Source: a virus (taxonomy: Duplodnaviria; Caudoviricetes). Taken from it: a stretch of DNA of 63,361 nt. Made by a program: the position numbers and the translations under genes. This document shows positions 3,831 to 39,619 of the stretch, in pieces; within the stretch, counting starts at the first letter, position 1; each line of letters opens with the position of its first letter. The notes below the pieces were generated by a model. That model saw only the letters and a list, made by a program, of their open reading frames with translations. It was not told where the DNA came from and made no database searches. Location of the stretch: positions 1 through 63,361 of the IMG/VR virus record IMGVR_UViG_3300047463_000230, one strand, 5' to 3'.

Positions 3831-4222
3831 CCGACCAGAATCCCAGCGTTGGACAGCGTGCCGGTCGAGCCGGAAGTATTTTGAATGGAGACTACGAATG
3901 ACAAAAATGGAGTGAAGTCGGACAACTTGACCGTCGTCGGAGTCGCCGCCGTCATCCCACTATTGTTTGTGTCAATCAGGATTGTGCCTGCCGCATCAAG
4001 GTAGCGACTGACAATGAGATCACCACTCTGGCTGAGTGTGGCGCAGGCAACGATCGAGTCTGCATTACCAGCCAAGATCACGCCACTTGACCACGTTGTA
4101 TTACCAGCGATGGTCGCTGGAAACGGAGTCGGGGGCGTAATGATATAGTTGCCGTTGGCCACGTAAACGGGGATTGCCGCAGCAGCATTCTGCTGCAAGT
4201 TCGGATAAGGATAGTTGCTCAT
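3827..4222 (-). CDS. Hypothetical structural protein
   Basis: Start trimmed to ATG 4222 (MSNYPYPNLQ), overlapping upstream stop. Confidence 0.5.
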   Translation of the reverse strand: MSNYPYPNLQQNAAAAIPVYVANGNYIITPPTPFPATIAGNTTWSSGVILAGNADSIVACATLSQSGDLIVSRYLDAAGTILIDTNNSGMTAATPTTVKLSDFTPFLSFVVSIQNTSGSTGTLSNAGILVG

Positions 4223-4668
4223 GATATTCCCCACAGTGTCCCGTACCGTTGTGCGAACGCAAGATACTGGCGGCCCCAAGGGTCCTTCAGGTACTGCAAG
4301 TCGGCCAGCGTAAAGTCCTCCGCCGCCTTCTGCACCACCATCGACTCGCTAGTGCCCTCGTCGCCCGCCGAGCTGATAACGCCCGACACAAAACCAAAGA
4401 TATTGTATTTGGTCCGCACGTCGGCGAAAAATGTCTGGCCGGTCGGGTCTTGCGCAAAGTTGATCAGATTGCTGCCGCCAAGATTGTAGACAGCCAGCAT
4501 GTAGATCGGCCCTGCCGCTTGCGCCAGGGCGCTATTGACGATTGACACCGCAACGTCATAGGCGAACGGGATAGAAGGCGAGTTGTCCGGCAGTTGGGTG
4601 GTCGTAATGCCCATCTGCGTCCTGACAAACACCAGGAACCCGGCCAGCGTTGGGGTGTAGGTGGTCAT
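4219..4668 (-). CDS. Head-tail adaptor (DUF4054-like)
   Basis: GVISSAGDEGTS...PWGRQYL motif; start trimmed to 4668. Confidence 0.6.
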   Translation of the reverse strand: MTTYTPTLAGFLVFVRTQMGITTTQLPDNSPSIPFAYDVAVSIVNSALAQAAGPIYMLAVYNLGGSNLINFAQDPTGQTFFADVRTKYNIFGFVSGVISSAGDEGTSESMVVQKAAEDFTLADLQYLKDPWGRQYLAFAQRYGTLWGIS

Positions 4669-4859
4669 ACCACTTCGGCCTTCCGCTTGAAGGCCACCAT
4701 CACAGTGGCCTCGCCATAGCAGCCCGCAGCGTTGCGGCTGTAGTACTTGCCCGCGAAGTGCAGGATGTCCGGCCACGGCAACAGACCAGTGATCTGTACC
4801 GTGGCGTGGCGCTTCCCATCCTTCCCAAACAAGTCAACGTCGCGGGGTTCGCCGGCCAT
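4665..4859 (-). CDS. Small hypothetical protein
   Basis: Short ORF tightly coupled to neighbours. Confidence 0.4.
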   Translation of the reverse strand: MAGEPRDVDLFGKDGKRHATVQITGLLPWPDILHFAGKYYSRNAAGCYGEATVMVAFKRKAEVV

Positions 4860-7363: not shown

Positions 7364-9211
7364 TTAGCGGTTCCCATTGTTACGGATGCCGGCGAGCCGG
7401 CGACGATTGGAGGCGTTGGAGAAGTTGGACATCCACGCGCGGGGCTCACCGACAAAGCTGATCATACGGCGGCCCGTCAGGTCCGTCGAAACGATCTCAC
7501 GCAGCGACCCCTCCGGCAAGCCGGCCGGGTTCATGGCCGCCGCAGTGGCGTCGGCATAAATCTGCGTCTCCGCGATGGTGAACGCAGCGTCGTCGGCCAA
7601 TGCGGACAGCTCGACCGGCTTCCACGTCGCACTGTGCTGCTTGAGGCCGGTCGCCAGACGACGACGGTAGGCCAGCAGCGTTTCGCCGTTCAGCGGGCGC
7701 GGGGCGCTGTCACCAAAGGCCGAAAACACCTTGTCGGCCTTGGCCTGGGCGTCGGCCATGGCGGCGTAGTCTGCGTCCGAAATCTGCTTCGGCAGCATCG
7801 CCTCGACTTGGTCGATGCGCCGGGCAACGTCGTCGTAACGCTTGGCGGCGTCGGCCTTGGCCTTCTCCTCGTCGTCATCGTCATCATCATCGTGACGGCG
7901 CTTGGCATCCTTGCGAGCCTTGCTGTCATCATCATCGTCATCATCATCGTGACGGCGCTTGGCCTTGTCAGCAATGACGCGCTTGGCCTCGATGTTTTCG
8001 GGATTTTCCTCGTCATCGTCATCATCGTCGTGACGGCGCTTGGCCTTGTCAGCAATCTTTTCCTCCGCCTCAAACGCATCCATGCGCTTGTGCAGCGAGT
8101 CCAGGTGCGCGAGCACCTTGTCCAGCTTGTCGCCACCCTCGGCAGCGTCGGCCTTCTTGGTCTCCTCGACCACTTCTTTGATGTCGTCAGGCACTGTTAC
8201 GTCTCCTTGAATAGTATCCGAGACAACCCCGGATGGTTTTTGGCCCTTGTCCCAGACGCCCTGTTCGCAGATGGCCAAGTGGTCGAGCAGGGAAGGCTTG
8301 CCCTCAATCAGCAGCTTGGACCCGTCTTCCAGTTCCATGCGGCTGTTTACGCTAGGTTCTCTAAACACGACGGATGGTGACGTAGACATTTGCGTCTCCG
8401 TCATCATCTTGATCGCGGCGTCGTCGTAAATCTTGGCGATGCCCCAAACTTCATCACCCTTGATATAAGGCAACACAATGGTTCCAACGATGCGGTCGGC
8501 AAATTCCGTGGAATTGAGCACCGCCGCATCGGGGTGCTCCATAATGACGGGCAGGCCATTGCAGCGCTCAAGGAAGTCAGGCATCAGGTAATTTTCAGGA
8601 CGCCTGTATACAAACTCGTCAAACCGCTTGCGGTACGCCGTGCCCGTGCCCGTAATGCGCATGTCAAACAAAGACATGTTTTCATAGCGCTGCGGCGACG
8701 GCAGGTCGCCCGCCATGATCATCTTGGCAACTTCGGTCTCATTGGCCATCAGTCGCCGCAGCGTGACCGCAACGCCGGGGTGCAGCGGGTCCGGCGCCTT
8801 GTCGACCGGCGTCCAGGCATAGGCGGTATGTTCGCCGTCCAGCGTCGGCACAAACTCGGCATCAACGCGCGTGACATAGGTTGTGAAGTCAACGGTCACG
8901 GGCGCCGCCGCACCGGCTGGAGGTCCGCCAACAGCGGCGCCCGTGGTCGACGCCGTCGCGGGGGCGGCCGGCGCGACTTCGTTGGAGCGGATGGTGCGCG
9001 TCAACAGTGTCAACGTGCCTTCCGCTTCAAATCCTGTTTCCTCGCGCGCCTCGCGGATCGCGGCTTGCTCGGGGCTTTCGCCGTCCTCCAGTTTGCCACC
9101 GGGCACGCACCAATAGCCGGCATAGTCGCCGGGCTGGGCGCGTTGCAGGAACAGAGCCTTGTTGTCAGGCGCCAGGATAAGGAGGCCGGCTGCGCGGGTC
9201 ATGTCAGTCAC
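7364..9211 (-). CDS. Nudix hydrolase fused to DUF2213-like prohead protease/scaffold
   Basis: Perfect Nudix box [23 protein letters not shown]; [13 protein letters not shown] and DHLAICEQG motifs; acidic C-terminal scaffold. Confidence 0.75.
7868..8056 (-). repeat. Three tandem AKRRH(D)n coding repeats
   Basis: tcatcatc(a/g)tcgtgacggcgcttggc repeated three times. Confidence 0.85.
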
Positions 9212-35173: not shown

Positions 35174-36676
35174 ATGCAATGGTCACCGCAACAATCCGCC
35201 TTCCTTGATTGGGCCGTCACAAGCTCTGGCTCATGTGTCCTTGAGGCCGTCGCAGGCGCCGGCAAGACTACCACGCTCATTGAGGCTGCCAGCCGCATGC
35301 CCGGTCAGGTCGCCATCATGGCCTACAACCGCAAGATTGCTGACGAAATACGCGGCAAGCTGGCCGACCGTGAAATTGACTGGAAAAAAGCACAAGCCAA
35401 CACCGTGCACGGCTTTGGCATGGGGGCCTATCGCAAGGCCCGCCCCAATGTCCGCGTCTATGATCGCAAGGTGGCGGATATTGTTGAAGCTCTTATTCCT
35501 GAGTCCCATCCGCTGGTGGCTTATCGGGATTCAATTGTCAAGCTGGTATCGCTGGCCAAACAGCTGGCCTATGGCATTGTCTGCCCGGCAAACAATCCAT
35601 ACCAGTGGTTTGAGATGGCTGAGCACTTCGATGTGTTTGACGACGATGACGGGTATGTTCCGAAGAATGACATCATCGATATTGCAATCGAAGCGCTTGC
35701 AGCATCGTCGCGCAATCTGGATGTGATTGACTTCGACGACATGATCTATATGCCGTTGCTGCACCGCATCAGGTTTTGGCAGTACGACGTCATCATGGTT
35801 GATGAGGCCCAGGACACCAATGCTGCTCGCCGCGCCCTTGTCCGCGCCATGCTGCGCAAGGGCGGCAGGGTCATCGCCGTCGGCGACCGCCATCAGGCAA
35901 TTTATGGGTTCACCGGTGCCGATGCTGATTCGCTTGATCTAATCGCCAAGGATTTTAACTGCAAGCAGCTGCCTCTGACCGTCAGCTACCGTTGCCCGAA
36001 GGCAGTCATTGCCTTTGCCCAGCAGTGGGTGTCTCACATTCAAGCAGCGCCGAGCGCTCCTGAAGGTGGTGCTGACAGCATTGAGATGGAAGCATTCTTG
36101 AAGCGAGATGATCTTGATGGCCGCTCAGCAGTTCTGTCGCGCACCACAAAGCCGCTGGTGTCCTTGGCCTTCAAGATGCTGCGCCAGCGGACGCCATGCC
36201 GCATCGAGGGCCGCGACATTGGGCAGCGCTTGATCAAGACAATTCAGCGCTGGAAGGTAAAGACACTAGATGGCCTTGAGGATCGGCTTGATAGTCACCT
36301 TTCAAAGATGACGACCAAGTTGCTAGCTAAAAAGCAAGAAGGGAAACTTGCAGAAGTTGAGGACATGGTGGAAACGCTGAAGGTCATCATCGACCAGTGC
36401 CGACTGGAAAAGAAGGACAAGGTGTCAGATGCAGTCGAGTACGTCGAGGCCATGTTTGCAGACGGTGTCGACCGCATTTTGACCCTGTCGACCATCCACA
36501 AGTCCAAGGGACGTGAGTGGCCTAATGTGTTTTGGTTGGACCGTATTGGCACCTGCCCAAGCAAATGGGCGCGGCAGCAGTGGCAGCAGGAGCAAGAAAA
36601 AAATCTTTGCTATGTTGCTGCGACGCGCGCTCAAGAATGCCTTTTTGACCTCCTTCCGGAAAGGAAACCCCAATGA
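35174..36676 (+). CDS. UvrD/Rep-family SF1 helicase
   Basis: AGAGKT, DEAQD, GD.HQAIYGF.GA, SYR, TIHKSKG.E, YVA.TRA. Confidence 0.88.
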   Translation: MQWSPQQSAFLDWAVTSSGSCVLEAVAGAGKTTTLIEAASRMPGQVAIMAYNRKIADEIRGKLADREIDWKKAQANTVHGFGMGAYRKARPNVRVYDRKVADIVEALIPESHPLVAYRDSIVKLVSLAKQLAYGIVCPANNPYQWFEMAEHFDVFDDDDGYVPKNDIIDIAIEALAASSRNLDVIDFDDMIYMPLLHRIRFWQYDVIMVDEAQDTNAARRALVRAMLRKGGRVIAVGDRHQAIYGFTGADADSLDLIAKDFNCKQLPLTVSYRCPKAVIAFAQQWVSHIQAAPSAPEGGADSIEMEAFLKRDDLDGRSAVLSRTTKPLVSLAFKMLRQRTPCRIEGRDIGQRLIKTIQRWKVKTLDGLEDRLDSHLSKMTTKLLAKKQEGKLAEVEDMVETLKVIIDQCRLEKKDKVSDAVEYVEAMFADGVDRILTLSTIHKSKGREWPNVFWLDRIGTCPSKWARQQWQQEQEKNLCYVAATRAQECLFDLLPERKPQ

Positions 36677-36780
36677 TCTGGGAAATCATATCAATGATCC
36701 GCGATGCAGCCGCCATTGCTCTTTTCATCGCTTGCCTTTTTCTCTATGAGATTTTGGCGAGTGGGCACCTTCCACTATAA
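36673..36780 (+). CDS. 35-aa membrane peptide
   Basis: Manual translation MIWEIISMIRDAAAIALFIACLFLYEILASGHLPL; AAGGA RBS, ATGA overlap. Confidence 0.4.
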   Translation: MIWEIISMIRDAAAIALFIACLFLYEILASGHLPL

Positions 36781-36787
36781 TTGACAA

Positions 36788-36846
36788 GGCCGAAACCGGA
36801 ACGCAAGGCGTTCCGGTCCATCCGTTAAGCGGATGCCGATGAGGCC
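36788..36846 (+). ncRNA. Type II hammerhead ribozyme, copy 1 (predicted cleavage after 36818)
   Basis: ggcc-GAAA-ccggaacgc/gcgttccgg-UC-catccg/cggatg-CCGAUGA-ggcc. Confidence 0.8.
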
Positions 36847-36884
36847 AAAGGCTCATCTATTCTAACTGCTGAAAGGAACAAACA

Positions 36885-37745
36885 ATGCAGCCAATCTACA
36901 CCAACACTGCTCGTTTCGATACTGGCCGCGCACTGACTGATGATGAGCTTTTCAAGCTTGCTCCATCAGTTTTTGCAACACAGGCACATGAAAGCCGCAG
37001 CGAGCGCTTCCGGCCGATCCCGACGATTGATGTGCTGCGCAGCTTGGAAAAAGAGGGTTTTGGCGTCGTCGGCGCCCGGCAATGCACAGTCCGTGATCCT
37101 GGCAAGGCACCGTTCACAAAGCACCTTCTCCGCATTCGGCGCATGAGCGATGAACGCAAGTACGCAGTTGGTGATACTGTTTTCGAGATGCTGATGCGAA
37201 ATGCCAATGATGGCTCCGGCGCATATGATCTGCTCGGCTCGCTGTATCGTATCCGCTGTATGAACTCAATGACTGCAAAGCTTGCCGATGTTGAAAGTGT
37301 CCGAGTTCGACACAGTGGTGATGTCCAAAGCAAAGTCATTGATGGGACATTTCGAGTGCTCGAAAGTGCAGAGCTCGCCTTGACGGCGCCAGAAAAATGG
37401 TCACAGATCAAGCTCGAAAAAGAAGAAGCATTGGCGCTGGCAACTTCAGCTCATCAAGTTCGCTTTGGCGAAAAGTCTGCAGGCCAACCCATCAGCCCTC
37501 AACGCTTGCTTCAAGCGCGGCGCAGTGGTGATTGCAGCAATGATCTTTGGACGACATTCAATGTCATTCAAGAAAATTGCATCCGTGGCGGTCAACGCAG
37601 CATTGTTGTTACTGAGGATGGCCGATACCGAAATGTTAGCACTCGGGCAATTCGAGGCATCGATCAAGACCTGAAGATAAATCGGGCATTGTGGATGCTC
37701 ACCGATCGGATGGCTGAAATCAAAGGAACTCGGTTGGTAGCCTAA
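36885..37745 (+). CDS. DUF932/DUF945-family protein
   Basis: APSVFA...HESRSERF..IPT, KHLLR, N.NDGS, D...DLWT.FN..QEN. Confidence 0.85.
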   Translation: MQPIYTNTARFDTGRALTDDELFKLAPSVFATQAHESRSERFRPIPTIDVLRSLEKEGFGVVGARQCTVRDPGKAPFTKHLLRIRRMSDERKYAVGDTVFEMLMRNANDGSGAYDLLGSLYRIRCMNSMTAKLADVESVRVRHSGDVQSKVIDGTFRVLESAELALTAPEKWSQIKLEKEEALALATSAHQVRFGEKSAGQPISPQRLLQARRSGDCSNDLWTTFNVIQENCIRGGQRSIVVTEDGRYRNVSTRAIRGIDQDLKINRALWMLTDRMAEIKGTRLVA

Positions 37746-37750
37746 TTCAA

Positions 37751-37809
37751 GACCGAAACCGGAACGCAAGGCGCTCCGGTCCATCCGTGAAGCGGATGCC
37801 GATGAGGTC
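37751..37809 (+). ncRNA. Type II hammerhead ribozyme, copy 2 (predicted cleavage after 37781)
   Basis: gacc-GAAA-ccggaacgc/gcgctccgg-UC-catccg/cggatg-CCGAUGA-ggtc; compensatory change in stem II. Confidence 0.8.
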
Positions 37810-37843
37810 AAAGGCTCGTCTGGAACCAACTTAGGAGACTAAA

Positions 37844-38302
37844 ATGAAGATCGAAAACATCACGACTGCTTCGACCAAGGAGCTGATTTCGTTCTACAAT
37901 GCTAACTCTGGCCGACCACTGGTCAAGAAGTTTGCCGACCGTAAGACTGCTGAGGCCCGTGTGAAGAATGTCATTGAGTCGATTGCCAAGAGCGAGCCGG
38001 CTAAAGTTGAAAAGACTGAGAGTGTCAAGCAGACCAAGGCCCCCAAAGCTGAGCGCGGCATTGTTGGCGCTGGTACCAATCGAGAGGTTCTTTTCAACTG
38101 CCTCACAGCGCGCATCAACAAGATGGTTCCCATGAGCCAGCTCATGATTGCCGTCTATGGCGATGCCAACAAAAGCAACAAGAGCAAGCTCATGATGGTT
38201 ATGAAGGGCATCAATTTTGTGATTGCATCCAAGGGCCTCCCCTTCACCATCAAAAAGGTTCGCGAAAATAAGGAGAATCACTTTGGACTCTTTGATGCCT
38301 AA
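37844..38302 (+). CDS. Hypothetical basic protein
   Basis: AGGAG RBS; EL...YN...VKKF.DRKTA..R module plus wHTH-like C-terminus. Confidence 0.55.
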   Translation: MKIENITTASTKELISFYNANSGRPLVKKFADRKTAEARVKNVIESIAKSEPAKVEKTESVKQTKAPKAERGIVGAGTNREVLFNCLTARINKMVPMSQLMIAVYGDANKSNKSKLMMVMKGINFVIASKGLPFTIKKVRENKENHFGLFDA

Positions 38303-38546
38303 GCTGTCAGTTCGTGAGGCCGGGCTTTTCAAATATTTGAAAGCCCGGCGCTCTTGGGTCACAAGCCTTGAACTCTGCCAACATGAATTTGGCAAGTTCA
38401 TCGACTGGCCAATTAATGCTAGAGTCATCATGACTGGCTGCATCGCTGGAATTTCAAAAAAACTCCAGCGAGCAAACTCGCCAGTAATGATTGAAAAACA
38501 AGGCGGAGGCCGTGGCGGTGTTTCATACCGCATCACAAGGAGATAA
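38295..38546 (+). CDS. Winged-helix-like protein
   Basis: LS.RE..LF.YL...I..I.KKL...GRGG..Y. Confidence 0.45.
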   Translation: MPKLSVREAGLFKYLKARRSWVTSLELCQHEFGKFIDWPINARVIMTGCIAGISKKLQRANSPVMIEKQGGGRGGVSYRITRR

Positions 38547-38792: not shown

Positions 38793-39087
38793 AAGCTACC
38801 TAGGGAACTGTCAACTTTTATCCATTGCGTGCGCGGCTGCCTTTTTCGCCCTGGCGTTCGGCATGCTTCTCGAGCGTAGCGGCGCCCTTGCCAAAGCGCG
38901 TGGACGGGCACGGGCAGACGCCATCAATGAGGCAGTGGCCATGATCCAGAAACACGCGTCGACCATGGAGACCGGGACAATCGCGGAGGGGTCGGACCTC
39001 AACGGTTACATGAAACTTAAAGCGTCCCACTACAGGCAAGCGGCGCAACGTGTGACGGCGCTGCATCAGGAGGCTACCAATGGATGA
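38779..39087 (+). CDS. Membrane-anchored hypothetical protein
   Basis: Hydrophobic N-terminal segment. Confidence 0.45.
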   Translation: MTAYESYLGNCQLLSIACAAAFFALAFGMLLERSGALAKARGRARADAINEAVAMIQKHASTMETGTIAEGSDLNGYMKLKASHYRQAAQRVTALHQEATNG

Positions 39088-39619
39088 GGAAACAGAACGG
39101 GGATACAGGGGCAGTTGTTGGACCCCCACCAATGTCAAGATATTACGGGACATGTGGGCCAAGAAATGCTACGTCCGCGACATATGCGCGGCCATTGGTC
39201 CGGGCGCCAGCCGCAACGCCGTCATCGGCAAGGCACATCGTCTCGGCCTTGGCACCAAGCGCGACGAGTGGAAGCGACTGCGGGCCGAGGCCCGAGATGC
39301 CCGCCTTAAGGCCAAGGCGCAGGCCCGCGCGTTGGCGCTGGCACAGGCCAGCGACCCCACACTTAAGGCGCTGACGCGGGACAAGCGCGCCAGCATACTC
39401 GACGACTTGGCCATACAGGGCGAGGTCCGGGCAACACTGGAACAAATGACTAAGCGCAGCCGGCTGCGGTTCATGCTCAAGTCGCATCCTAAGTGCACAT
39501 GGTTTGGCTGTGACAGCCCGCCGTATGAACGCGGCAAGCCATATTGCCGCGACCACCGTCATGCCGTTATGGTCCAACCAACAGGGGTCATTTATGCAGG
39601 GTCCGGGCTTAGTCGATAA
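39080..39619 (+). CDS. gcrA: GcrA-like cell-cycle regulator
   Basis: WT......L..MW......I...IG..SRNAVIGKAHRLGL and C-terminal C.W..C...PYC..H. Confidence 0.8.
   Translation: MDEETERGYRGSCWTPTNVKILRDMWAKKCYVRDICAAIGPGASRNAVIGKAHRLGLGTKRDEWKRLRAEARDARLKAKAQARALALAQASDPTLKALTRDKRASILDDLAIQGEVRATLEQMTKRSRLRFMLKSHPKCTWFGCDSPPYERGKPYCRDHRHAVMVQPTGVIYAGSGLSR

What the first reader, a model, noticed from the sequence alone, without database searches (positions are those of the whole stretch)
36788..37809. Twin hammerhead ribozymes bracket the DUF932 gene: a self-excising, possibly circular phage mRNA
Seen: two ~60-nt direct repeats (36788-36846, 37751-37809) both fold as type II hammerheads (stem II-GAAA-stem III-GUC-stem I-CCGAUGA-stem II). 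Stem II covaries (GGCC/GGCC vs GACC/GGUC). Cleavage after 36818 and 37781 would release a 963-nt RNA holding the RBS and entire DUF932 ORF. Known: hammerhead products carry 5'-OH and 2',3'-cyclic phosphate ends, which RtcB or the ribozyme can join, and tandem hammerheads generate circles in retrozymes and viroids. Inference: the phage cuts its early transcript into a protected 5'-OH monocistronic or circular mRNA for a probable anti-defence/recombination protein. The repeats could also act as recombination sites that swap early-gene cassettes.
Basis: partly seen in the sequence, partly recalled or inferred. Interest (0 to 1): 0.9.

Follow-up and report, generated by a model that had tools for sequence, protein, structure and literature searches.

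The report
Two hammerhead ribozymes flanking a phage gene
Two small self-cutting RNA motifs (hammerhead ribozymes) really do bracket one gene of this freshwater phage, but this layout is common in phages and has been known since 2011, and nothing supports the idea that the released message becomes a circle.

Summary
Two 74-nt direct repeats (93% identical, 963 nt apart) each hold a complete type II hammerhead: HH1 36788-36846 and HH2 37751-37809, with predicted cuts after C36818 and C37781. They bracket the DUF932 ORF. Every core position is canonical except U4, which is C in both copies.

Rfam finds nothing here, even at E<=10. A covariance model I built from 57 independent phage type II hammerheads scores the two copies 49.6 and 46.0 bits, against 12.5 for the next best hit in the window. 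That family shows strong compensatory variation.

C4 recurs in eight other distinct aligned phage hammerheads, all with intact stems. The only pattern hits with a purine at position 4 lack stem I.

The layout is ordinary. In 34 locus-strands of the 91 sources scanned (90 viral loci plus this window), two to seven hammerheads stand in series. Each starts a median of 1 nt after an upstream stop and ends a median of 25 nt before the next start. Perreault et al. 2011 described and tested such clusters and found no circular or spliced product. This scan has also noted such arrays on other DNA.

Most likely the pair cuts the operon transcript into a DUF932 message with a 5'-OH end and a 2',3'-cyclic phosphate end. 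Cleavage is untested, and U4C is reported to slow it. The circular-RNA and anti-defence readings have no support.

The parts
36785..36858 (+). Direct repeat, copy 1 (74 nt). It extends 3 nt 5' and 12 nt 3' beyond the ribozyme.
   Evidence: family D1, reference copy; only two copies in the record
36788..36846 (+). Hammerhead 1, type II. Stem II 36788-36791 with 36843-36846. GAAA 36792-36795. Stem III 36796-36804 with 36808-36816, plus A36795-U36817. C17 = 36818, with the predicted cut after it. Stem-loop I 36819-36835. Core CCGAUGA 36836-42, with U4 replaced by C at 36837.
   Evidence: sequence; descriptor; session covariance model 49.6 bits, E 8.8e-14, full length 1-61/61; the 59-nt minimum-energy fold is the hammerhead fold
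36838..36857 (+). Competing hairpin GAUGAGgCC-AAA-GGCUCAUC. It pairs core positions 5-9 and the 3' strand of stem II. The copy 2 equivalent is 37801-37820.
   Evidence: minimum-energy folds are 2.8 and 4.1 kcal/mol below the hammerhead fold once the extra bases are present. Not enriched in the family, and reached by 28% and 12% of shuffles.
36885..37745 (+). DUF932 ORF (286 aa) between the two ribozymes. RBS AAAGGA at 36872-36877.
   Evidence: Pfam PF06067 E 1.1e-33; phrog_12094, unknown function; nearest homologues about 60% identical, many of them in Rhizobiales-type bacteria and plasmids
36819..37781 (+). Predicted 963-nt cleavage product. It would carry a 5'-OH at C36819 and a 2',3'-cyclic phosphate at C37781.
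   Evidence: inferred from the hammerhead cleavage rule applied; not observed
37748..37821 (+). Direct repeat, copy 2 (74 nt, 5 differences from copy 1)
37751..37809 (+). Hammerhead 2, type II. Stem II GACC/GGUC. One A.C mismatch inside stem III. C17 = 37781. Core CCGAUGA 37799-37805.
   Evidence: session model 46.0 bits, E 1.3e-12
37844..38302 (+). Downstream ORF (152 aa). Its message would start at the HH2 cut. RBS AGGAG at 37833-37837.
   Evidence: no Pfam family; phrog_4730, unknown function
36673..36780 (+). Candidate 35-aa hydrophobic ORF. Its ATG overlaps the helicase stop (ATGA). It ends 7 nt before HH1.
   Evidence: translation. The spacing fits the family habit of a hammerhead starting just after an upstream stop. 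Coding status not tested.
36754..36781 (+). Sigma-70-like promoter match: TTGGCG, 16 nt, TATAAT. The -10 hexamer ends 6 nt before HH1. It overlaps the end of the 35-aa ORF.
   Evidence: 10 of 12, the best of 7 sites in 6 kb, where 3.2 +/- 1.8 are expected. Not a family habit: 3 of 142 hammerheads score 9 or more, against 0.5% of control positions.

Best explanation
The two repeats are cis-acting type II hammerhead ribozymes of a phage subclass with a fixed 17-nt stem-loop I. Both carry the core variant U4C.

They lie in two intergenic gaps of a + strand operon: SNF2 helicase, UvrD-like helicase, a possible 35-aa ORF, DUF932, a 152-aa ORF, and further on GcrA.

When transcribed, each most likely folds as soon as its 59 nt are made and cuts itself after C36818 or C37781. 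That splits the transcript into three pieces:
- an upstream piece ending in the stem III hairpin and a 2',3'-cyclic phosphate;
- a 963-nt single-gene DUF932 message that begins with 5'-OH and the stem I hairpin;
- a downstream message that also begins with 5'-OH.

The likely effect is to uncouple the stability and translation of neighbouring genes.

What is shown: the motif, its fit to a covarying family, and its placement.
What is inferred: cleavage itself, its rate (U4C is reported to slow it) and the effect on expression.
For: (1) Anatomy.

(2) Family fit. A covariance model built from 57 phage hammerheads that do not match the window-derived pattern scores the copies 49.6 and 46.0 bits. 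The next hit in 63 kb, with filters off, is 12.5 bits.

(3) The family is a real structured RNA.
- 95.2% of pair cells are standard pairs, against 69.0% in shuffles and 23-40% when partners are slid.
- 492 cells are changed on both sides, against 110 in shuffles.
- All 6 stem I pairs show compensatory change.
- In 147 distinct sequences, C3, G5, A6, G8, A9, G12-A14, A15.1 and U16.1 are invariant.

(4) C4 looks tolerated, not decayed.
- 10 of 147 aligned hammerheads have C4, two of them the window's, and none has A or G.
- The 10 non-window C4 pattern hits all keep 4 bp or more of stem I, and 8 keep 7 or more.
- The 3 hits with a purine at position 4 have 0 bp of stem I.
- Perreault et al. 2011 state that a U4C viroid hammerhead loses much activity in vitro yet supports infectivity (passage read).

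(5) Of the 5 differences between the copies, 2 are a compensatory pair in stem II.

(6) Placement matches the family.
- Family: the hammerhead starts a median of 1 nt after an upstream stop (139 of 142 have such a frame).
- Family: it ends a median of 25 nt before an ORF of 50 aa or more (144 of 152).
- Here: 7 and 5 nt after a stop, 38 and 34 nt before a start.

(7) Series of 2-7 hammerheads occur on 34 locus-strands. A second phage contig (L182, identical to part of L060) has hammerhead-DUF932-hammerhead.

(8) Perreault et al. 2011 showed cleavage at all sites in three such clusters in vitro, and in vivo for one (passages).
Against: - Rfam RF02276 gives no hit on either copy. This holds at gathering, at E<=10 on 1.2 kb, at E<=10 on 91 nt and in the own-record search. 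A U4 member of the same subclass scores 35.5 bits and a C4 member 22.0 bits, so the window's copies fit the curated model worse than both.
- U4 is part of the strict consensus, and a core change disqualified hits in Perreault's final alignments. U4C is reported to lower activity considerably in vitro.
- No loop I to 3'-tail pseudoknot is evident, so the tertiary contact that gives fast cleavage at physiological Mg2+ is unidentified.
- A downstream hairpin that sequesters the core is 2.8-4.1 kcal/mol more stable than the active fold in the nearest-neighbour model.
- The session model and most family members come from loci collected with a pattern derived from this window. The sample is therefore biased toward similar stem III and core sequences.
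- No RNA data exist for this phage, so nothing here shows cleavage.
Confidence: 0.7

Rival explanations
1. Attenuated or dead hammerheads. The U4C change, inherited by both copies through duplication, has disabled cleavage. The elements persist as stable intergenic hairpins (stem III, stem I and the third hairpin). These would act as RNA stabilisers, protein or RNase sites or attenuators, not as ribozymes.
For: - Core deviates at U4.
- U4C considerably decreases activity in vitro according to Perreault 2011.
- The minimum-energy fold of the 73- and 81-nt stretches is three separate hairpins with the core sequestered.
- No Rfam hit.
- No recognisable pseudoknot.
Against: - C4 recurs in 8 other distinct aligned phage hammerheads with intact helices, while purine-4 look-alikes have no stem I.
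- The compensatory stem II change between the copies preserves a helix that matters only for the hammerhead fold.
- All other core positions are intact in both copies.
- The third hairpin is no more than chance gives: 28% and 12% of shuffles reach it, and the family mean is 4.12 against 4.00.
Confidence: 0.2
2. Circular DUF932 mRNA. After both cuts, the 5'-OH and 2',3'-cyclic phosphate ends of the 963-nt RNA are joined by the ribozyme itself or by an RtcB-type ligase.
For: The end chemistry fits, from established hammerhead chemistry. The two halves that would meet are 93% alike. A core-sequestering alternative fold is the kind of feature that protects viroid circles from re-cleavage (recalled, not tested).
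Against: - Perreault et al. 2011 say they were unable to detect circular or spliced products from phage clusters.
- The hybrid junction pairs GACC with GGCC, giving an A.C mismatch in a 4-bp stem II. Its minimum-energy fold lacks stem II.
- After cleavage of a type II hammerhead, the two products are held together only by stem II.
- No paper on circular phage mRNA from hammerheads turned up in the searches.
Confidence: 0.04
3. HH1 trims a promoter-proximal leader instead of cutting a polycistronic RNA. Transcription starts at about 36786-36790 from the sigma-70-like site 36754-36781. HH1 is then the first 59 nt of the transcript. Its cut removes a roughly 31-nt triphosphate leader and leaves a 5'-OH DUF932 message. 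This is compatible with the main explanation for HH2.
For: - The best promoter-like match in 6 kb (10 of 12, perfect TATAAT) ends 6 nt before HH1.
- A weak terminator-like hairpin lies at 36701-36719.
- Perreault 2011 report a halovirus hammerhead whose cut lies within 3 nt of a mapped 5' end.
Against: - The TATAAT is also the last sense codon (CTA), the stop (TAA) and the base after it of a plausible 35-aa ORF.
- Such promoter matches are not a family habit: 3 of 142.
- The scan is a consensus match only, and the host's promoter type is unknown.
Confidence: 0.2
4. DNA-level role. The 74-nt direct repeats are cassette borders. The DUF932 gene came in, or can leave, by recombination between hammerhead sequences shared among phages.
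For: - The repeat extends beyond the ribozyme by 3 nt on the 5' side and 12 nt on the 3' side, which points to DNA duplication.
- Near-identical hammerheads with identical 3' flanks occur within other phages, for example L039 and L070.
- The nearest DUF932 homologues, about 60% identical, are mostly in bacteria and plasmids. Only one phage-collection record, an unverified 4.8-kb entry, reaches 58% identity; the others listed are at 27-36%.
- The phages nearest by helicase (57-67% identity) have no hammerhead and no DUF932 within 4 kb.
Against: - No deletion joint in contigs of 4 DNA runs.
- No syntenic relative was available to show an empty site.
- GC content of the gene (0.51-0.54) is like its surroundings.
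- This would not explain the conserved catalytic core.
Confidence: 0.1

Closest known systems
Clustered hammerhead ribozymes flanking single genes or short gene blocks in prophages (Perreault et al. 2011, PLoS Comput Biol, PMC3088659; passages read)
   Same: - Type II architecture.
- Phage context, co-oriented and intergenic.
- Two ribozymes bracket one gene of variable identity.
- The proposed role is cutting long phage transcripts into single-gene messages.
- The circular or spliced alternative was already raised and looked for there, without success.
   Different: - The core has C4 instead of U4.
- No evident loop I to 3'-tail pseudoknot.
- The cargo is DUF932; their A. tumefaciens cluster flanks ardA and a gene of unknown function.
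- Their supplementary alignments, which could hold this subclass or C4 phage examples, could not be opened.
Rfam Hammerhead_II (RF02276)
   Same: Same order of elements and the same core. Pseudoknotted members of the family I collected are called by it at 41.7-61.4 bits: 16 hits in L033, L040 and L083.
   Different: - The window's copies give no hit, even at E<=10.
- A U4 member with the same 17-nt stem-loop I scores 35.5 bits, under the cut-off of 37.
- A C4 member scores 22.0 bits.
- None of 17 descriptor-positive hammerheads in six loci was called at gathering.
U4C hammerhead of a viroid (Ambros and Flores 1998, known to me only through Perreault's text and reference list; the paper itself is not held)
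   Same: The same single core substitution. It is reported as much less active in vitro but sufficient in vivo.
   Different: That one is a circular, replicating plant-pathogen RNA, not a DNA phage operon.
Tandem hammerheads of retrozymes, viroids and satellite RNAs that yield circular RNAs (review PMC6765202, passages read)
   Same: Two like hammerheads in direct orientation bracket a unit. The end chemistry allows ligation.
   Different: - Those units are repeats of one replicon, so the junction re-forms the same hammerhead.
- Their circles are observed and are templates for replication.
- Here the unit is an mRNA of a DNA phage, the junction hammerhead would carry a stem II mismatch, and no circle has been seen.

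Membership tests
Hammerhead ribozyme, type II | Three helices around the core in the order II(5')-GAAA-III-UH-I-CUGANGA-II(3'). Stems I and III are closed by loops and stem II is open. | tested here: met
   Both copies have stem I of 7 bp and stem II of 4 bp. Stem III is 10 bp in HH1 and 6 contiguous bp in HH2. The 59-nt minimum-energy fold is this junction.
Hammerhead ribozyme, type II | Core positions C3, G5, A6, G8, A9, G12, A13, A14, A15.1, U16.1 and H17 (consensus as listed by Perreault 2011) | tested here: met
   All are present in both copies. The same positions are invariant in 147 distinct family members, and H17 is C, U or A.
Hammerhead ribozyme, type II | U at core position 4 | tested here: not met
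   C at 36837 and 37800. Under Perreault's first criterion this would disqualify the hit until activity is measured. C4 occurs in 10 of 147 aligned family members, two of them the window's.
Hammerhead ribozyme, type II | Standard pairs next to the core: 10.1-11.1, 1.1-2.1 and 15.1-16.1 | tested here: met
   G-C, C-G and A-U in both copies
Hammerhead ribozyme, type II | Score at or above the Rfam RF02276 gathering cut-off (37 bits) | tested here: not met
   No hit at gathering or at E<=10. For comparison, L050 scores 35.5 bits and L014 22.0 bits.
Hammerhead ribozyme, type II | Fit to a covariance model of independently collected phage type II hammerheads | tested here: met
   49.6 and 46.0 bits, full length. 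The next hit in the window is 12.5 bits.
Hammerhead ribozyme, type II | Tertiary contact between stem-loop I and the stem II side (in many type II members, a pseudoknot of loop I with the 3' tail) | tested here: inconclusive
   No pseudoknot of 4 bp or more was seen by eye in either copy. The copies belong to a subclass of 51 of 142 distinct hammerheads with a 17-nt stem-loop I. In that subclass G6 (44 of 51), U7 (50), A9 (42), G11 (34) and C12 (44) are conserved. This hints at another contact, which was not tested.
Hammerhead ribozyme, type II | Site-specific self-cleavage giving 5'-OH and 2',3'-cyclic phosphate ends | not testable with these tools
   No RNA run holds this DNA
Clustered phage hammerheads that flank genes (Perreault 2011) | Several hammerheads on the coding strand, in intergenic gaps, bracketing single genes in a phage genome | tested here: met
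   - The record is a complete viral contig.
- Both hammerheads are on the + strand, like all neighbouring ORFs.
- They lie 7 and 5 nt after a stop and 38 and 34 nt before a start.
- The family shows the same habit.
Hammerhead-bounded circular RNAs (viroids, satellites, retrozymes) | A circular RNA species with the junction at the two cleavage sites | not testable with these tools
   No RNA data. Contigs of 4 DNA runs show no joint, which says nothing about RNA.
Hammerhead-bounded circular RNAs (viroids, satellites, retrozymes) | The junction re-forms a complete hammerhead, because the flanking copies are equivalent | tested here: inconclusive
   The hybrid of the HH2 5' half and the HH1 3' half has an A.C mismatch at 10.3-11.3, and its minimum-energy fold lacks stem II. 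Two pairs next to the core remain, and Perreault reports that this suffices in some natural hammerheads.

The most novel reading that the evidence does not exclude
The 963-nt RNA released by the two hammerheads is ligated, by the hybrid ribozyme or by a host RtcB-type ligase, into a circular, translatable DUF932 mRNA. The downstream core-sequestering hairpin keeps the circle from re-cutting. This would be a protein-coding circular mRNA made by a DNA phage.
Probability: 0.04. Interest if true: 0.85.

Novelty: new variant of a known kind. Interest (0 to 1): 0.25.

Why it matters
As an instance it adds little. Hammerheads that bracket phage genes have been known since 2011 and are abundant in viral contigs.

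Three small points may be useful:
- A core U4C variant recurs in phage type II hammerheads with intact helices (10 of 147 aligned). This suggests that pyrimidine-4 variants are functional, or slow and possibly conditional, ribozymes rather than wreckage.
- A populous subclass has a fixed 17-nt stem-loop I and no evident pseudoknot. Rfam's type II model largely misses it at its cut-off, so annotation pipelines under-count phage hammerheads.
- DUF932, a gene of unknown function typical of conjugative plasmids, is hammerhead-bracketed in two unrelated phage contigs. It has no hammerhead in 83 of 84 further DUF932 loci checked (the 84th is that second phage contig). The ribozymes therefore belong to the phage operon style, not to the gene.

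The biological purpose of such processing is still open (review PMC6765202). Any tractable phage-host pair with this layout could address it.

Tried and rejected
Rfam. The whole window at gathering, 1.2 kb at E<=10, 91 nt at E<=10 and RF02276 against the record gave no hammerhead at the site. The only RF02276 hit, 7631-7688(-) at 13.2 bits, is chance level, since the same search rings in 11 of 14 control genomes. I did not take this as refutation, because the same model scores a canonical subclass member under its cut-off and missed 17 descriptor-positive hammerheads in six loci.

Close relatives.
- DUF932 as a single query found nothing in viral contigs. The exact stem I and core pattern found nothing. 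blastn of the 1.2-kb region against GenBank phages found nothing.
- Relatives by the helicase (23 loci) and by the 152-aa ORF (32 loci) hold no hammerhead at E<=0.01, except one 18.5-bit marginal hit in L106. The helicase loci share no other neighbouring gene with the window, apart from a distant SNF2 in three. An empty-site comparison was therefore impossible.

Is DUF932 a habitual hammerhead cargo? Four plasmid or phage loci gave none with the descriptor. Of 84 loci searched with the session model, only L182 had any. Rfam at gathering found none on 20 of those 84, a set that did not include L182.

Gene tally after hammerheads. I scanned 121 distinct ORFs, all following descriptor-positive hammerheads within 70 nt. 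ORFs after hammerheads that only the covariance model finds were left out, among them L060's DUF932.
- Pfam: 15 families, the most frequent being DUF7417 in 4 ORFs, and no DUF932.
- PHROGs: 18 families, mostly of unknown function.
No common theme emerged.

Competing hairpin as a family feature: rejected. The mean best complementary run is 4.12, against 4.00 in shuffles, and 15 of 142 reach 6 or more.

Promoter directly before hammerheads as a family feature: rejected. Three of 142 score 9 or more.

Expression. No RNA holder is listed for this DNA. Contigs of four DNA runs were laid: all were identical, with no other letters and no joints. That gave no natural variants to test pairing and no evidence on RNA.

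DUF932 function. No PDB relative by sequence at E<=1. PHROG function unknown. Of 13 papers holding 'DUF932', none has it in the title or abstract (listing only). I did not fold it.

Literature.
- Searches were seen as listings.
- Passages were read from PMC3088659 and PMC6765202.
- Only the outline and abstract of PMC7151607 were read; it concerns A6C, not U4C.
- PMC8782182 was seen as a listing and abstract only.
- Supplements of PMC3088659 (alignments, variant figures) were not opened. They may already hold C4 phage examples or this subclass.
Full report
What is there

The window is a whole 63,361-bp viral record. The repeat finder gives one family of two 74-nt direct repeats, 36785-36858 and 37748-37821. 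They are 93% identical and 963 nt apart. There are no further copies in the record.

Read as RNA on the + strand, each copy has the full order of a type II hammerhead. HH1 is laid out as follows:
- stem II 5' strand GGCC, 36788-36791
- GAAA, 36792-36795
- a 9-bp hairpin that, with A15.1-U16.1, makes stem III, 36796-36816
- U36817 and C36818, the cleavage-site nucleotide
- a 17-nt stem-loop I, 36819-35
- CCGAUGA, 36836-42
- stem II 3' strand GGCC, 36843-46

HH2 is the same at 37751-37809, with stem II GACC/GGUC and one A.C mismatch inside stem III.

A descriptor I wrote returns exactly these coordinates and cleavage sites, plus one nested alternative parse of HH2. It gives 1 hit in 20 shuffles of the window. 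The 59-nt motif is its own minimum-energy fold in both copies.

The ORF between the copies, 36885-37745, is DUF932 (PF06067, E 1.1e-33).

First, core position 4 is C, not the consensus U, in both copies.

Second, Rfam reports no hammerhead here at all. This holds at gathering on the whole window, at E<=10 on 1.2 kb and on 91 nt, and with RF02276 run against the record. That last search returned only a 13.2-bit hit elsewhere, and the same search rings in 11 of 14 control genomes. These points had to be weighed before accepting the motif.

Is it a real hammerhead?

I searched viral contigs with a pattern that fixes only the stem II and stem III ends and the core, leaving stem I free and allowing C or U at position 4.
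- It hit 90 stretches, giving 99 matches: 87 with CUGAUGA and 12 with CCGAUGA.
- In the 95 non-identical instances, which include the window's two, the unconstrained stem I region forms 4 or more contiguous pairs from the core in 86. The same holds for 61 of 1,900 shuffles.
- The control pattern with a purine at position 4 hit 3 stretches. All three have 0 bp of stem I, so they are not hammerheads.
- All 10 non-window C4 instances keep stem I, and 8 have 7 bp or more.

A general descriptor then found 152 type II hammerheads, 142 of them distinct, in these 90 loci plus the window.

From the 57 hammerheads that do not match the window-derived pattern I built a covariance model.
- With filters off it scores the window's copies 49.6 bits (E 8.8e-14) and 46.0 bits (E 1.3e-12), both full length. 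The next hit in the window is 12.5 bits.
- Across 82 sources it finds 163 matches at E<=1e-4.
- On the 150 best (147 distinct), 95.2% of pair cells are standard pairs, against 69.0% in shuffles and 23-40% with slid partners. 492 cells are changed on both sides, against 110 in shuffles. All six stem I pairs show compensatory change. This alignment is fitted to the model, which leans the counts toward the structure. The descriptor counts do not depend on it.
- C3, G5, A6, G8, A9, G12-A14, A15.1 and U16.1 are invariant.
- Position 4 is U in 137 and C in 10, never a purine.

A caution applies. Most of the sample was gathered with a pattern that allowed only pyrimidines at position 4, so the absence of purines is informative only through.

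Why Rfam is silent

- RF02276 calls the pseudoknotted members at gathering: 16 hits in L033, L040 and L083.
- It calls none of the 17 hammerheads that my descriptor finds in L021, L053, L056, L014, L034 and L064.
- A canonical U4 member with the same short stem-loop I (L050) scores 35.5 bits, under the 37-bit cut-off.
- A C4 member (L014) scores 22.0 bits.

The window's copies score lower still, or are lost in the filters. I cannot say which. Rfam's silence therefore reflects the reach of that model rather than the absence of the motif. It remains a failed membership criterion, and I report it as such.

Subclass

51 of 142 distinct hammerheads have a stem-loop I of exactly 17 nt. In these, G6 (44 of 51), U7 (50), A9 (42), G11 (34) and C12 (44) are conserved. 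Both window copies fit this form.

I saw no loop I to 3'-tail pseudoknot in them. Perreault et al. describe that pseudoknot for many type II members. The tertiary contact that would support fast cleavage is thus unidentified.

Placement and commonness

Across the family:
- The hammerhead starts a median of 1 nt after the stop of an upstream open frame (139 of 142 have one within 120 nt).
- An ORF of 50 aa or more starts a median of 25 nt downstream (144 of 152).
- On 34 locus-strands there are 2 to 7 hammerheads in series.

The window fits. HH1 starts 7 nt after the stop of a possible 35-aa ORF and ends 38 nt before DUF932. HH2 starts 5 nt after the DUF932 stop and ends 34 nt before the 152-aa ORF.

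All neighbouring ORFs with family hits are on the + strand: SNF2 and UvrD-like helicases upstream, GcrA downstream.

The genes that follow hammerheads are mostly small and unnamed. Among 121 ORFs scanned, Pfam gave 15 families (none in more than 4 ORFs) and PHROGs 18.

DUF932 itself carries no hammerhead in 83 of 84 further loci. These are 80 bacterial genome loci plus 4 plasmid or phage loci. The exception is L182, which is identical over its 3,843 bases to viral contig L060. There a 285-aa DUF932 ORF (1495-2352) lies between hammerheads at 1409-1470 and 2355-2418, inside a run of five. The ribozymes therefore go with the phage operon, not with the gene.

What is known

Perreault et al. 2011 (PMC3088659, passages read) report several things:
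- Multiple hammerheads often flank individual genes or short gene blocks in prophages, and the gene identities vary.
- This implies processing of long phage transcripts into single-gene or operon-length mRNAs.
- Three such clusters cleaved at all sites in vitro, and the A. tumefaciens ardA cluster also in vivo in E. coli.
- Spliced or circular products were considered but could not be detected.
- Any core change disqualified a hit in their final alignments, though variants in phage contexts were seen as likely functional and were often tested.
- A U4C viroid hammerhead is much less active in vitro yet sufficient in vivo. The original paper is not held.

A 2019 review still calls the purpose of bacterial and phage hammerheads unresolved (PMC6765202). 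Earlier notes of this scan describe many similar arrays on other DNA and name the same closest known. My own sample agrees.

How it most likely works

Each ribozyme can fold as soon as its 59 nt are transcribed, and then cuts after C17.

After the cut of a type II hammerhead, the two products are joined only by the 4-bp stem II, so they should part. The upstream product ends in the stem III hairpin with a cyclic phosphate. The downstream product begins with 5'-OH and the stem I hairpin, followed by the RBS.

From general knowledge of bacterial mRNA decay, such ends should alter stability. That step is inferred, not tested here.

Two features argue for slow or conditional cleavage: U4C, and a downstream hairpin (36838-36857 and 37801-37820) that sequesters G5-A9 and the stem II strand. 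That hairpin is 2.8-4.1 kcal/mol more stable than the active fold in the nearest-neighbour model. It is no longer than chance gives and is not a family trait, so I give it little weight.

HH1 and a possible promoter

A sigma-70-like site scoring 10 of 12, with a perfect TATAAT, ends 6 nt before HH1. If it is real, HH1 would be the 5' leader of a primary transcript.

The same bases, however, encode the end of the 35-aa ORF. Such sites are also not typical of the family.

The circular reading

- No RNA run holds this DNA.
- The junction hammerhead would pair GACC with GGCC, giving an A.C mismatch, and its minimum-energy fold lacks stem II.
- The one group that looked for circles in phage clusters reported none.
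- My literature searches found no report of such a circle.

The reading is not excluded. I give it about 4%.

The cassette reading

The repeat extends beyond the ribozyme on both sides, so the two copies arose by DNA duplication or conversion. Contigs of four DNA runs show no deletion joint. No syntenic relative was found.

Verdict

This is a U4C variant of a known ribozyme in a known, common phage arrangement. Interest is low to moderate.

Noticed in passing
L053:10302-10356 (+): A Twister-P5 ribozyme (RF02684, 59.3 bits, over its cut-off) lies on the same strand, about 900 nt after the last of five type II hammerheads. One phage operon therefore uses two ribozyme classes.
   Followed up: no
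window 36673-36780 (+): Candidate 35-aa hydrophobic ORF (MIWEIISMIRDAAAIALFIACLFLYEILASGHLPL). Its ATG overlaps the UvrD-like helicase stop (ATGA), with AAGGAAA upstream. It was missed by the 40-aa ORF listing.
   Followed up: partly
window 36754-36781 (+): The best sigma-70-like match in 6 kb (TTGGCG, 16 nt, TATAAT) ends 6 nt before hammerhead 1. It overlaps the end of the 35-aa ORF.
   Followed up: partly
L182:1409-2418 (identical to part of L060): A second, unrelated viral contig has hammerhead-DUF932-hammerhead within a run of five hammerheads. The same 46,297-bp contig is filed both in IMG/VR and in a Novosphingobium MAG.
   Followed up: yes
51 hammerheads in L004-L093 and the window: A subclass of type II hammerheads has a stem-loop I of exactly 17 nt with conserved G6, U7, A9, G11 and C12. 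I saw no loop I to 3'-tail pseudoknot in the window's two copies or in the printed rows, and did not test this across the subclass. Rfam's RF02276 calls none of those tested at its cut-off.
   Followed up: partly
L116:2420-3154 and 4001-4786: A homologue of the UvrD-like helicase is split into two collinear pieces (residues 3-243 and 241-498) about 850 nt apart. This could be an intron, an intein or a homing-endonuclease insertion.
   Followed up: no
window 39080-39619 (+): The phage encodes a GcrA cell-cycle regulator homologue (PF07750, E 4.1e-14). Together with the named DUF932 relatives, which are mostly from Rhizobiales-type bacteria, this points to an alphaproteobacterial host.
   Followed up: no
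L039 and L070 (two hammerheads each): Pairs of near-identical hammerheads are followed by identical 25-nt 3' flanks. This suggests that a hammerhead-plus-leader module duplicates within phage genomes.
   Followed up: no
window 36500-38400: The same DNA, without a single difference, stands in contigs of four aquatic or freshwater metagenome runs from four studies. Two of them may be the source of the record.
   Followed up: partly
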